A stretch of DNA of 62,574 nucleotides, the filler included, from Rhabdomonas costata (lineage: Eukaryota): the NCBI GenBank assembly GCA_019059605.1. It is 36 parts of 36 records of this genome, joined end to end, with 100 filler letters (N's around TTAATTAATTAA, not from the genome) between each part and the next. Parts side by side here need not be neighbours in the genome. Positions count along the whole stretch, not along the records: positions 50,496 to 52,135 come from JAHMHO010011479.1; positions 52,236 to 53,875 come from JAHMHO010011480.1; 34 more parts are not named here. The stretch is one strand, 5' to 3'. The notes beneath the pieces were generated by a model. It saw only the letters and a program-made list of their open reading frames with translations, made no database searches and was not told where the DNA came from. The position numbers and the translations under genes are program-made. Below, piece after piece: positions 9,281-52,405 of this stretch (the stretch's first letter is position 1; each line of letters begins with the position of its first letter).

Positions 9281-10313
9281 CAACGTTTGTCAAATTGTGG
9301 GCCACCCCAATTGTTGAACCCCCGTTTTCCCTGGTATCAATGTTGGGAGGCAACGGCAACTCGCAAAATCCAACATTCACTCGGGAAGGGGGTCTGAGAC
9401 CTTGGATTCATTTTCTTTTGACAAACGTCGTGTACTTGAGGGAAACTAAGATACTGGCACACTCAAAGAGATACTGAGATTCGACTTTTGTTTTCCTTTC
9501 TTTTCAGCCGGTCCACCACACGGCAGTGGAAGGAGGGCCTTCCAGGCTGATTGAGGGACTTTAATGCTCAGTGTGCGAGTTTGGGGGGTTAGTTCTTCTG
9601 AATGAAATGACCACTGTTCTCAGAATTCCAACAGCATCAAATGGTAAAACAAACATTTTGGCCGCTTATGAATTGTTTTTAGCGGGTTAAAAATTGCTTA
9701 TGTCGTTCCCACCTATTGCAAAGCACTTGCTTTAAGGGATCTACTCTTTTGAAATGTCTTCAATTAGCTGTAATATGCGGTTCTAGAGATGGCTTCTGCA
9801 GTATTTAAACGGCAGAATGCCTTTCATAAGCGGCAAAAAGTATTCTGCCACTGAAAGAATAGTTGGGCAACGTTTTCTGGAACATAGAAGCTGGAATGGG
9901 TCTAATTCGACCCATTTTGACCTTTTGTGAGGCCTTTCCGTGGGAGTTGATGCCTTGAAAAGGTTCGCTTTTTTCAACCTGAATCACGTTACTATAAGAT
10001 TTACACACTAGGAAAATGATCCAAAAAGCATTAATTGGTAAAAACCAAACATTTATCCGCTTATAAATTTCTCGGCGGCTTAAAGCTCTGCTTAAGCAGG
10101 TTCCAGCCCCAGAGCCAAGCACTTGGATCTGGATTTTCAGCCTGTGTGAAGCTACTAGTACCGTTTTTATGGGAGGGGAACTAAAGGTTTACTGTGTTTT
10201 TGTCAAGTGCTCAGTCGCACTCTGTATTTCTTGTTTGTTGTTGAAACGCAACGTTTGCCAAATTGTGGGCCACCCCCATCTAGTGAACCCCCCGTTTTCC
10301 CCGGTATCAATGT
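9281..10313 (+). repeat. Imperfect ~65-bp direct repeat pair
   Basis: CAACGTTTG.CAAATTGTGGGCCACCCC...GAACCCCCGTTTTCCC.GGTATCAATGT at 9281-9343 and 10249-10313. Confidence 0.8.
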
Positions 10314-50495: not shown

Positions 50496-50865
50496 GTTGT
50501 TTGTTCTCGAAGTTAGCGAATACTGTCTCAACTTCGCTGAGAGTTTCCGATGACAACTTTGTTGTTATCGTGTTCTCATTGTCGGTAATGTTGACTTCAA
50601 CGGCATCGAAACCGGTGATCGTGTATGGTTTGTACACTTGCCGATCTTTCAGATGACCAATTTTTCTTTGGAGGTTGATGATCATCTTGTTGTTGAGGTC
50701 CGTAAGAACATGGATAGATTCAGCAGGTGGGCGGTCGTTCTCCGCAATCAAGAAAAGCAAAATGACTTCGTCGACCTTCATCTTTGAAAAGCTAATTGGA
50801 GAGACATTTCTTCCTTGATAAAAAGAAGTCAAGTCCTGCGCAACATTGTACGTGCGAATTTCCAT
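50496..50865 (-). CDS. Intronless low-GC orphan ORF (3' truncated), putative viral early gene
   Basis: At least 123 codons (MEIRTYNVAQDL...). No family recognised. AAAATTGA lies about 90 bp upstream. Confidence 0.55.
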
Positions 50866-50954
50866 CCATTCAAGTTTGGTCTTCAGATTACAATACGATT
50901 GTACACATTGGATACTTACATATTATAATATGTGTTTTACACATATTTATAATT

Positions 50955-50962
50955 TCAATTTT
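50955..50962 (-). promoter_or_regulatory. AAAATTGA Mimivirus-type early promoter motif
   Basis: The minus strand reads TTTAAAAATTGAAATT in an AT-rich intergenic region, 90 bp upstream of the ATG at 50865. An octamer can occur by chance in AT-rich DNA. Confidence 0.55.
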
Positions 50963-51130
50963 TAAATATCTATAGTTGTACCCTAAAAAAATTTTTAATT
51001 CTGAATTATATTTGAATTTTTATCACAAAACAAAATATATTTTTATATATTATTTGAAAATATATATTTTTTATATATATTTGAAAAATACATGATTTTA
51101 AATAACTAATAAACAAAATAGTTGTTATTA

Positions 51131-51842
51131 TATCATATATATTCTGCGTCATTGATTGGAAAACGTGAACAAAATGAAGATTATTTAACTATTGAAACAT
51201 CACAAAGAGATATTAAATTATATGCTATTTATGATGGTCATGGTGGAAGATTCACATCCTATTTCCTATCAAAGGTTATACCTAAATATTTTTTTAATTA
51301 ATTGTTATTATTATTATTATTAAATGTTAATGTTACTGTTAATGTTATATGTATTTTTTGTTTTGTATCAATACATTAATTACATTAATTAAATGTATAA
51401 AATTAATACATAAATACATAATACATTAATACATTAATTAATGTATTAATGTATTATGTATTTATGTACATAATAATTAAAGTTAATACATAAATACATT
51501 AATTTATGGTATTATTTTTAAATTTAAATTTAATGTATTTTTAATGTATTTATACAATTTAATTAATCAATTAATTGATACAAAAATACATATTTTAAAA
51601 ATATTCAATTTGTTGCATAACAAATATTTTACAGAAGCAAATGATACGGGTTCTACTTGTTTACTTTGTTTGGTTAGTAAAGAATGTAATGATACTTACA
51701 TATATAATATTAATAATGTATAATATTAATTTGGGAGATTCTAGATGTGTTATGTCGCGATAATTTTCCTATTCCATTGAGTAAAGATCATAAACCTAAT
51801 TGGCCTGAAGAAAGAAAACGAATTGAAAAAATAGGTGGTGAA
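51131..51842 (+). pseudogene. Disrupted PP2C phosphatase resembling Mimiviridae-type PP2C
   Basis: IYSASLIGKREQNED...YAIYDGHGGRFTSYFLS (51131-51298, then TAA); KYFTEANDTGSTCL (about 51622-51663); NLGDSRC / VLCRDNFPIPLSKDHKPNWPEERKRIEKIGGE (about 51728-51842). No ATG, two frameshifts, an AT-rich insertion and a missing C-terminus. Confidence 0.8.
51347..51593. repeat. AT-rich foldback element inside the PP2C pseudogene
   Basis: Perfect 62-bp palindrome 51407-51468. Outer imperfect inverted repeats ATATGTATTTTT..TTTTGTATCAAT / ATTGATACAAAAATACATAT. Built from TAATACAT-like words. Confidence 0.85.
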
Positions 51843-52251
51843 ATGCTACTGCAAGAATTCCACGAGAACTCATCTGTGCTGTTTCCTTGTCATTATGATA
51901 ATATTGTATTAGATGAAATAAGAAAATAGAAGAATATATTTATGAAGGCTTGAATACATTAAATGTAGTATATTCCAACGATATTATGAAATATATATAA
52001 TTTGTCCAAATATGAAAACATTAGGAAAGAAATGTAGAAGCAAGTTAAATTATATCAAAGACAAATTACAATTATTAGATCAAAATAGCATAAAGGATAT
52101 ATACGAGATTATTTATCAAATCAGTACAACAACACNNNNNNNNNNNNNNNNNNNNNNNNNNNNNNNNNNNNNNNNNNNNTTAATTAATTAANNNNNNNNN
52201 NNNNNNNNNNNNNNNNNNNNNNNNNNNNNNNNNNNTGAAGTTGTTAAGGGT

Positions 52252-52405
52252 GCACTTTTCCGAAACTGAGCCCCTTTAGAAGGTTGCACTGTCTGCAGGT
52301 AATCAAGAATGTCAACGTGCGCAAAACAGCACTTTTCCGAAACTGAGCCCCTTTAGAAGGTTGCACTGTCTGCAGGTAATCAAGAATGTCAACGTGCGCA
52401 AAACA
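52252..52405 (+). repeat. Perfect 77-bp tandem duplication
   Basis: 52252-52328 is identical to 52329-52405. Confidence 0.92.

What the first reader, a model, noticed from the sequence alone, without database searches (positions are those of the whole stretch)
50496..52135. Decaying giant-virus-like DNA: candidate endogenous Imitervirales element
Seen: an extremely AT-rich contig in an otherwise roughly 50% GC set, with compact divergent genes lacking GT-AG introns, AAAATTGA upstream of one ORF, and a PP2C with no start, frameshifts (a 16-bp duplication at about 51715-51730 and a short deletion at C-V-L), an insertion, and truncation into further broken AT-rich coding-like DNA. Known: AAAATTGA is the Mimiviridae early promoter, mimivirids encode PP2Cs, and a klosneuvirus infects the euglenozoan Bodo. 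From memory, SLxGKRExNED and CVLCRDNFxxPLxKDHKPxWPEE resemble the viral subtype. Inference: pseudogenisation favours a viral segment integrated in the host over a replicating virus, which would record a possibly undescribed giant virus of euglenids.
Basis: partly seen in the sequence, partly recalled or inferred. Interest (0 to 1): 0.8.

Follow-up and report, generated by a model that had tools for sequence, protein, structure and literature searches.

The report
Broken giant-virus phosphatase gene relic
A 1.6-kb AT-rich contig carries the wrecked front 60% of a protein phosphatase gene of the kind found in mimivirus-like giant viruses, next to DNA that looks like the host's own, so it is probably a small dead remnant of a past giant-virus insertion.

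Summary
The window is a chain of 36 unrelated contigs of about 1640 bp. Contig 50496-52135 is the only AT-rich one: 25.5% GC against 41-60%.

It holds four collinear pieces of one PP2C gene in three frames. The gene has no ATG. A 284-nt palindromic microsatellite block interrupts it, and a 16-bp tandem duplication and a 2-bp deletion shift its frame. It ends at profile position 160 of 267.

The gene belongs to the short, roughly 265-aa PP2C family of Imitervirales. The only organism names among the best 120 database hits are Fadolivirus, Catovirus and 'uncultured virus'. In a tree, the window copy nests with the first two.

- **Host-like left end.** The left 390 bp has host-like codon usage, so the contig may itself span a virus/host junction.
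- **Promoter motif.** The AAAATTGA 'promoter' is no more than chance.

Three things remain open. Integration is likely but unproven, because no reads or genome were available. The host's identity was not tested. No cellular PP2C was in the tree.

Giant endogenous viral elements of Euglena gracilis are already published, but as Asfuvirales (PMC12455990). This is therefore a new member of a known kind, of modest interest.

The parts
50496..50885 (-). Segment of host-like composition (about 42% GC). One frame is open over its whole length: ATG at 50865-50863, running off the contig end, 123 codons from the ATG. No known relatives.
   Evidence: GC per 50 nt is 0.34-0.56 and GC3 is 52%. Codon-usage log ratio is +0.69 per codon, inside the range of the other contigs. 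A frame open over 129 codons is reached in 1.7% of 3000 simulations. No hit in 5.8e9 proteins of 67-216 aa, in 1.84e9 representatives, in Pfam above cut-off or in the ESM Atlas. AlphaFold pLDDT 36.8.
50886..51133 (.). Very AT-rich spacer (8-26% GC) between the two divergent reading frames. It holds a 25-27-nt tandem repeat (51032-51104) and the single AAAATTGA (50955-50962, minus strand).
51134..51304 (+). PP2C piece 1: profile positions 2-65 (GKREQNED and DGHGG motifs). The start codon is missing, and 7 residues are deleted relative to the relatives.
   Evidence: 39.7 bits, E 1.1e-13 against the family profile. Alignment. Virus-like codon usage, -0.75.
51305..51588 (+). 284-nt insertion replacing 8 profile positions. 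It is an imperfect palindrome built of microsatellites (ATT x7, AATGTT x5, AATACATT x8 and its inverted copy ATTAATGT x4), at 8-14% GC.
   Evidence: Inverted repeats I1 and I2. Tandem repeats. The DNA fold of 51340-51605 is -56.6 kcal/mol against -29.0 +/- 3.1 for shuffles, z -8.9, with 0 of 200 shuffles as good. The net +260 nt accounts for the frame change.
51589..51714 (+). PP2C piece 2: profile positions 74-119 (GST motif), in a second frame.
   Evidence: 11.2 bits, E 5.2e-5. Alignment to the sister protein P0004.
51715..51730 (+). 16-bp tandem duplication (14 of 16 bases identical to the preceding 16). It shifts the frame by +1.
   Evidence: Sequence. Repeat D10. Frame change between pieces.
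51731..51751 (+). PP2C piece 3 (LGDSRCV). It ends at a 2-bp deletion in a TG run (about 51750) that shifts the frame again.
   Evidence: The two frames overlap by 2 nt (my reading of the coordinates).
51750..51851 (+). PP2C piece 4 (LCRDNFPIPLSKDHKPNWPEERKRIEKIGGE), up to profile position 160. The homology stops here, and the last 107 profile positions are absent.
   Evidence: 54.1 bits, E 4.3e-18. PF00481 28.2 bits. 79% identity to P0001 over 34 aa.
51846..51895 (.). 50-nt patch of 42% GC directly after the break in the PP2C. Origin unknown.
   Evidence: No match to the other contigs or to the viral loci.
51896..52135 (+). AT-rich tail with a short frame open to the contig end (ATG at 52014). 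No relatives were found.
   Evidence: no family above cut-off. Codon usage -0.46, virus-like. No significant tblastx hit to 1.28 Mb of viral loci.

Best explanation
The right 1250 bp of the contig is a dead remnant of giant-virus DNA. It is the 5' 60% of a PP2C serine/threonine phosphatase gene of the Imitervirales (Klosneuvirinae-like Mimiviridae) type, with AT-rich flanks.

The gene cannot make a phosphatase (shown):
- The start codon is gone.
- A 284-nt hairpin-forming microsatellite block, a 16-bp slippage duplication and a 2-bp slippage deletion each break the frame.
- The C-terminal 40% is missing. By established knowledge of the PPM fold, that part carries the remaining metal-binding aspartates.

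Inferred: the left 390 bp is host-type DNA. The contig would then span one edge of a short endogenised viral fragment that is eroding by replication slippage and deletion in the host genome, and it has no function today.
For: Family and origin:
- Searching piece 4 for longer proteins found 8 proteins of 265-293 aa with E <= 0.01 among 32 candidates, at 61-79% identity.
- A profile of those 8 found 96 relatives in IMG/VR. 79 loci were kept, and 43 of them are named giant-virus bins.
- The same profile gave 5645 hits with E <= 1e-5 among 8000 candidates scored from the 5.8e9-protein collection. The best 120 are all 261-302 aa, and the only organism names among them are Fadolivirus algeromassiliense, Catovirus CTV1 and 'uncultured virus'.
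- Both named viruses are Mimiviridae, Klosneuvirinae.
- The three nearest ESM Atlas clusters are 92%, 100% and 74% Viruses, commonest Nucleocytoviricota.
- In a tree of 99 rows, the window copy lies in a 48-row clade (SH-aLRT 99) with Fadolivirus and Catovirus, sister to L005/P0004 (SH-aLRT 96).
- 3 of the 4 records searched that hold family members are giant-virus bins of 0.59-1.77 Mb with NCLDV capsid genes over the cut-off.

Decay:
- Four pieces in three frames, and nothing beyond profile position 160.
- Only 33 of 41 columns that are at least 95% conserved in 131 family proteins are kept, while no family member misses more than 4.
- The end branch is 0.53 against a median of 0.25.

Junction:
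- Codon-usage log ratio is +0.69 for the left ORF. PP2C pieces 1, 2 and 4 score -0.61 to -0.75.
- The host-contig 5-95% range is 0.44-1.30, and the viral 99th percentile is 0.07.
Against: - No reads, coverage or host genome could be examined. A chimeric contig or co-sequenced free viral DNA is therefore not excluded.
- About 1% of the 661 viral ORFs also show host-like codon usage (maximum 1.51), so a GC-rich gene inside a virus is possible.
- The 'host' codon model comes from long open frames in 35 short contigs, not from verified genes. It mostly reflects GC3.
- The left ORF has no relatives at all, so it cannot be shown to be a host gene.
- The AT-rich part has not drifted towards host composition (coding GC3 is 12-17%). 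An old insertion in a 50% GC genome might have been expected to drift.
- No NCLDV hallmark gene is on the contig. The other 35 contigs gave 0 tblastx hits to the viral loci, but that database holds only PP2C neighbourhoods.
- The tree holds no cellular PP2C, because none could be fetched. The prokaryote scan failed three times.
Confidence: 0.55

Rival explanations
1. This is co-sequenced, non-integrated DNA from a giant virus or another AT-rich organism in the culture or library that happens to carry a PP2C pseudogene. The GC-richer left end is either an assembly chimera or a foreign-looking gene of that same genome.
For: This is the only AT-rich contig of 36. There is no drift towards host composition. 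About 1% of the 661 viral ORFs have host-like codon usage. The left ORF has no relatives, so it cannot be tied to a host. A second GC-richer patch at 51846-51895 sits exactly at the PP2C break, as a chimeric join would.
Against: None of the 131 family members comes close to this level of damage, whereas replicating giant viruses keep this gene intact and about 265 aa long. A 1.6-kb fragment with two composition switches is more easily explained by erosion in a host. Published work argues that NCLDV-like DNA in eukaryote assemblies is usually inserted (PMC5294986, passages read).
Confidence: 0.27
2. The contig is a piece of one of the already described Asfuvirales-type endogenous elements of Euglena gracilis. 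An example is the 25.4% GC outlier CP87_12, which would have carried a PP2C acquired from an Imitervirales virus.
For: The published elements are 25-37% GC and are eroded by duplications and mobile elements. CP87_12 is 25.4% GC and shares under 50% amino-acid identity with the rest (PMC12455990, Results read). The contig is 25.5% GC.
Against: The gene nests with Klosneuvirinae. By eye, 0 of the 43 giant-virus bin names among my loci are among the 28 GVMAG names in the Asfarviridae table of PMC8005611. In the main text of PMC12455990, 'phosphatase' and 'PP2C' occur 0 times. Its supplements could not be seen. It was not tested that the window comes from that species.
Confidence: 0.12
3. The gene is intact in reality, and the breaks are sequencing or assembly errors.
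For: The assembly is very fragmented, with all contigs about 1.6 kb. AT-rich microsatellites are error-prone.
Against: Five independent lesions of different kinds are present. They include loss of the ATG, loss of 107 C-terminal profile positions, and 4 substitutions or deletions at near-invariant columns away from any break.
Confidence: 0.04

Closest known systems
Short PP2C (PF00481) of Klosneuvirinae / Imitervirales, e.g. Fadolivirus algeromassiliense and Catovirus CTV1 proteins (P0071, P0086)
   Same: Same family-specific motifs, and collinear over profile positions 2-160. It nests in the same 48-row clade at SH-aLRT 99.
   Different: The window copy has no start codon, three frame breaks, and a 284-nt insertion, and it lacks positions 161-267. 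Its identity to members has a median of 46% and a maximum of 53%, against a member-to-member median of 59% on the same columns.
Giant endogenous viral elements of Euglena gracilis (Jivaji et al., J Virol 2025, PMC12455990)
   Same: Low GC (25-37%) in a genome of about 51% GC, and erosion by duplications and insertions (Results read).
   Different: Those elements are 86-311 kb and are placed in Asfuvirales by MCP and PolB trees. Here there is only a 1.25-kb relic of one gene, and its relatives are Imitervirales. It was not tested that the window is from this species.
Bodo saltans virus, the one isolated giant virus of a euglenozoan
   Same: It belongs to the order Imitervirales, as stated in the introduction of PMC12455990. 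That it belongs to Klosneuvirinae is recalled, not from a call.
   Different: It is a replicating virus of a kinetoplastid. I did not see its PP2C, if it has one, among the named hits.
Cellular PPM/PP2C phosphatases with solved structures (e.g. 2i0o, plant clade-A PP2Cs, human PPM1A)
   Same: Same Pfam family and motifs (RxxxED, DGHGG, GDSR, DHKP).
   Different: The best solved chain scores 104 bits against the sister protein P0004, while family members score 440-492 bits against the family profile. Pieces 1 and 4 score 26-27 bits more against the family profile than against Pfam's general PP2C model.

Membership tests
PP2C / PPM phosphatase (Pfam PF00481) | Match to the family model above the curated cut-off | tested here: met
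   Piece 51717-51926 scores 28.2 bits against a cut-off of 20.3. Piece 51122-51298 scores only 12.9 bits.
PP2C / PPM phosphatase (Pfam PF00481) | Complete catalytic domain, including the C-terminal metal-binding motifs, in one open frame | tested here: not met
   No ATG, three frames, and nothing matching profile positions 161-267. It is a pseudogene, not an enzyme.
Imitervirales (Klosneuvirinae-type) 265-aa PP2C family | Higher score to the family profile than to the general model, and family-specific motifs (VLCRDN, KDHKPNWPEE) | tested here: met
   54.1 and 39.7 bits to the profile of A2, against 28.2 and 12.9 bits to Pfam.
Imitervirales (Klosneuvirinae-type) 265-aa PP2C family | Phylogenetic position inside the clade that holds named Klosneuvirinae | tested here: met
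   48-row clade at SH-aLRT 99 with Fadolivirus and Catovirus; sister to L005/P0004 at 96. Caveats: a quick search with the LG+G4 model, the window row fills 49% of columns, and there are no cellular sequences in the tree.
Endogenous NCLDV element (EVE/GEVE) | Physical linkage of viral DNA to host DNA | tested here: inconclusive
   There is a composition and codon-usage switch at about 50885-50930. No reads or genome were available to verify the join.
Endogenous NCLDV element (EVE/GEVE) | NCLDV hallmark genes (MCP, PolB, A32, VLTF3) in the same region | not testable with these tools
   The contig is 1.6 kb and holds none. The other 35 contigs give 0 tblastx hits to the viral loci, but that database covers only PP2C neighbourhoods.
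Mimiviridae early promoter (AAAATTGA upstream of genes) | Motif present upstream of genes more often than composition predicts | tested here: not met
   One copy, and 35% of simulations have at least one. The window has 2 against 3.55 expected. Only 2 of 39 family PP2C genes carry it within 200 nt upstream.
Published Asfuvirales GEVEs of Euglena gracilis | Asfuvirales affinity of the viral genes | tested here: not met
   The one gene present groups with Imitervirales. By eye, 0 of 43 bin names are shared with the Asfarviridae MAG table.
Spliceosomal GT-AG intron (for the 284-nt block) | GT...AG borders that restore the reading frame and the homology | tested here: not met
   There is no AG between 51560 and 51632. 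The first AG lies downstream of residues that still align to the sister protein. The block is a microsatellite palindrome.

The most novel reading that the evidence does not exclude
The contig is a true host-virus junction. It would record the endogenisation of a Klosneuvirinae-like mimivirid in this protist. If the host is a euglenid, that would be a second giant-virus order besides the published Asfuvirales elements. It is also the order of the only isolated euglenozoan giant virus. The donor lineage is not sampled closer than about 53% amino-acid identity.
Probability: 0.35. Interest if true: 0.55.

Novelty: new member of a known kind. Interest (0 to 1): 0.35.

Why it matters
If the relic is integrated and the host is a euglenid, it shows that mimivirus-like viruses, and not only asfarvirus-like ones, have left DNA in that lineage. 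That widens the known past host range of Imitervirales within Euglenozoa.

The relic is also a compact example of how such inserts decay. The damage here is replication slippage (a 16-bp duplication, a 2-bp loss and a microsatellite palindrome) and truncation, rather than base substitution.

On its own it is one dead gene fragment on a 1.6-kb contig. Its value is as a pointer to screen the rest of the assembly.

Tried and rejected
- **Left ORF.** There is no relative among proteins of 67-216 aa (longer and shorter proteins were not searched) and none in 1.84e9 representatives. The only Pfam match is below the cut-off (GRIM-19, 12.7 bits). The ESM Atlas gave no usable hit. The AlphaFold model had pLDDT 36.8, too poor for a fold search, so none was run.
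- **Right-end ORF and GC patch.** They have no match to the other contigs or to 1.28 Mb of viral loci.
- **Palindromic block as a mobile element.** A search of IMG/VR for its 12-nt terminal arms at the same spacing found 1 locus (L080). That locus turned out to be an unrelated tandem array of a short hairpin. I therefore dropped the reading of the block as a MITE (miniature inverted-repeat transposable element).
- **Global DNA alignment to three viral genes.** It was not informative because of the insertion, so the breaks were set from the profile alignment instead.
- **Literature look-up of six bin names.** It gave one paper through a substring match (…-4 inside …-40). That was a false lead, but the paper's table served as a negative check.
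- **Rfam on the whole window.** 0 matches.
Full report
**What the window is.** The 62.6-kb window is not one locus. It is 36 separate contigs of 1637-1655 bp joined by N/TTAATTAATTAA spacers. The finding is contig 30, at 50496-52135. At 25.5% GC it is the only AT-rich one; the other 35 range from 41.0 to 59.5%. None of those 35 has a 300-bp stretch below 36% GC.

**The PP2C pieces.** Pfam's PP2C model (PF00481) matches the translation of 51717-51926 at 28.2 bits (cut-off 20.3). It matches that of 51122-51298 only weakly, at 12.9 bits.

A search of 5.8e9 proteins with the first of these pieces, allowing longer proteins, returned 8 proteins of 265-293 aa among 32 candidates. They were 61-79% identical over the matched part.

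A profile of these eight (alignment A2) was run against all six frames of the contig, with stops read as X. It finds four collinear pieces:

| Window coordinates | Profile positions | Score |
|---|---|---|
| 51134-51304 | 2-65 | 39.7 bits |
| 51589-51714 | 74-119 | 11.2 bits |
| 51716-51760 | 115-129 | 4.2 bits |
| 51741-51851 | 124-160 | 54.1 bits |

The pieces lie in three different frames. Nothing matches profile positions 161-267 in any frame.

**The lesions.** Five lesions can be read from the sequence.
1. The start codon is missing: the window reads YHIYS where relatives read MNVHS.
2. Between pieces 1 and 2, 284 nt replace 8 profile positions. The net gain of 260 nt accounts for the frame change. 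The block is an imperfect palindrome made of microsatellites: ATT x7, AATGTT x5, AATACATT x8 and the inverted ATTAATGT x4. As single-stranded DNA, 51340-51605 folds at -56.6 kcal/mol, against -29.0 +/- 3.1 for 200 shuffles (z -8.9, none as good). It is not a GT-AG intron. There is no AG until 51633, which lies downstream of residues that still align to the sister protein.
3. A 16-bp tandem duplication at 51715-51730 (14 of 16 bases identical to the preceding 16) gives the +1 shift between pieces 2 and 3.
4. The frames of pieces 3 and 4 overlap by 2 nt in a TGTG run at about 51750. That implies a 2-bp slippage deletion at C-V-L (my reading).
5. Homology stops after ...KIGGE at 51845. It is followed by a 50-nt patch of 42% GC and then more AT-rich DNA without relatives.

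Away from the breaks, the copy has also lost near-invariant residues. Of 41 columns that are at least 95% conserved in 131 family proteins, up to the break, it keeps 33. Four are lost by substitution or deletion, and the others fall at or beyond the breaks. No family member misses more than 4, and the median is 0.

Its identity to members has a median of 46% and a maximum of 53%. The member-to-member median on the same columns is 59%.

**Whose gene it was.**
- The profile found 96 relatives in IMG/VR. 79 loci were kept, and 43 of them are on contigs named as giant-virus bins. Some contigs reach 530 kb.
- Against the 5.8e9-protein collection, the profile gave 5645 hits with E <= 1e-5 among the 8000 candidates scored. 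The best 120 are all 261-302 aa. The only organism names shown are Fadolivirus algeromassiliense, Catovirus CTV1 and 'uncultured virus'.
- NCBI taxonomy places both named viruses in Imitervirales, Mimiviridae, Klosneuvirinae.
- The three nearest ESM Atlas clusters of P0003 are 92%, 100% and 74% viral, commonest Nucleocytoviricota. The first eukaryotic cluster is at rank 8.
- Of four records that hold family members and could be searched, three are giant-virus bins of 0.59-1.77 Mb with NCLDV capsid genes above the cut-off. The fourth is a 64-kb fragment that holds the sister gene and has no capsid gene.

I built a tree of 99 rows: the window read-through with X at each break, 77 genes from the loci, and 21 database proteins. 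The method was IQ-TREE quick search with LG+G4. The window copy falls inside a 48-row clade (SH-aLRT 99) with Fadolivirus and Catovirus, sister to L005/P0004 (SH-aLRT 96). Its end branch is 0.53 against a median of 0.25.

The tree has limits. The window row fills 49% of the columns. The outgroup rows are other PP2Cs from viral contigs and are not one clade. No cellular PP2C is in the tree, because I had no way to fetch one. The scan of prokaryote genomes failed three times.

Indirect evidence for distance from cellular PP2Cs:
- The best solved cellular chain scores 104 bits against the sister protein, while in-family scores to the profile are 440-492 bits.
- Pieces 1 and 4 score 26-27 bits more to the family profile than to Pfam's general model.

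**The left end.** The first 390 bp are about 42% GC. One frame is open along the whole stretch (129 codons), which is reached in 1.7% of 3000 simulations. It has an ATG at 50865 on the minus strand and so runs divergently from the PP2C.

Its GC3 is 52%, against 12-17% in the PP2C pieces. I computed a synonymous-codon log ratio between two sets:
- open frames of the other 35 contigs (56 frames, 11,529 codons);
- open frames of the viral loci (661 frames, 272,744 codons).

| Sequence | Log ratio per codon |
|---|---|
| Left ORF | +0.69 |
| PP2C pieces 1, 2 and 4 | -0.61 to -0.75 |
| Right-end frame | -0.46 |
| Host frames, 5-95% range | 0.44 to 1.30 |
| Viral frames, 99th percentile | 0.07 |
| Viral frames, maximum | 1.51 |

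The ORF has no relative in any search and no usable structure model. So the contig switches from host-like to virus-like composition at about 50885-50930. This is what a virus/host junction would look like. A chimeric contig or a foreign gene inside a virus would look the same.

**The promoter motif.** AAAATTGA occurs once, at 50955-50962 on the minus strand, about 90 nt upstream of the left ORF. This is not evidence for a viral promoter:
- The window holds 2 copies against 3.55 expected.
- 35% of 5000 simulations of the AT-rich part hold at least one copy.
- Only 2 of 39 family PP2C genes have it within 200 nt upstream.
- Over all 79 loci the motif is about 1.5-fold commoner than the mean of eight permutations (464 against 301). 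That fits Imitervirales relatives but says nothing about this contig.

**What is known already.**
- Jivaji et al. (PMC12455990; abstract, Results parts 1-2 and term passages read) describe eight giant endogenous viral elements in Euglena gracilis. They are 86-311 kb and 25-37% GC in a genome of about 51% GC. They are eroded by duplications and mobile elements and are placed in Asfuvirales. One outlier, CP87_12, is 25.4% GC. Its main text has 0 occurrences of 'phosphatase' and 'PP2C', and mentions Imitervirales once, for Bodo saltans virus.
- Gallot-Lavallée and Blanc (PMC5294986; passages read) already listed E. gracilis among assemblies with NCLDV core-gene homologues.
- By eye, none of the 43 bin names among my loci appears among the 28 GVMAG names of the Asfarviridae table in PMC8005611 (passages read).
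- My searches for Euglena + giant virus + endogenous (15 papers), Euglena gracilis + Imitervirales (6 papers, listing only) and PP2C + Mimiviridae (0 papers) showed no report of an Imitervirales-type relic in a euglenid.
- I did not test that the window comes from a euglenid. The composition of its other contigs only agrees with the published figure.

**Verdict.**
- The Imitervirales origin of the gene, and its death, are well supported. My estimate is about 0.9 for these two points together.
- Integration in a host is the best reading (0.55) but rests on composition alone.
- This is a new member of a known kind, endogenous giant-virus remnants in protists. It is of modest interest by itself, and is most useful as a reason to screen the rest of the assembly for Imitervirales genes.

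Noticed in passing
window 50911-50961 and 51691-51732: A 13-nt exact repeat (GATACTTACATAT) extends to a gapped local alignment of about 45-50 nt. It joins the composition boundary and the PP2C region around the 16-bp duplication. The score of 40 was reached in 0.7% of 1000 simulations. It could be a small internal duplication of a PP2C fragment, or chance in AT-rich DNA.
   Followed up: partly
window 51032-51104: A tandem repeat of a 25-27-nt AT-only unit (2.1-2.7 copies) lies in the spacer between the two divergent frames.
   Followed up: no
window 52252-52405 (next contig): A unit of about 77 nt (starting GCACTTTTCCGAAACTGAGCC...) occurs twice head to tail at the start of the neighbouring, GC-normal contig. 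Seen by eye.
   Followed up: no
L007, about 9858-9933 (upstream of its PP2C gene): Six copies of AAAATTGA at spacings of 11-22 nt sit 72-140 nt upstream of the PP2C gene of a 279-kb viral contig. This is an array of the mimivirid early-promoter motif.
   Followed up: no
L080 6013-6360: A 57-kb viral contig carries a tandem array, with a period of about 100-190 nt, of a short perfect hairpin. Its arms equal the 12-nt ends of the window's palindromic block, but the interior is unrelated.
   Followed up: partly
L008 and L020: The PP2C genes of these two IMG/VR contigs (482 kb and 115 kb) are identical in protein sequence to the Fadolivirus and Catovirus proteins respectively. These contigs can therefore serve as named anchors.
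   Followed up: no
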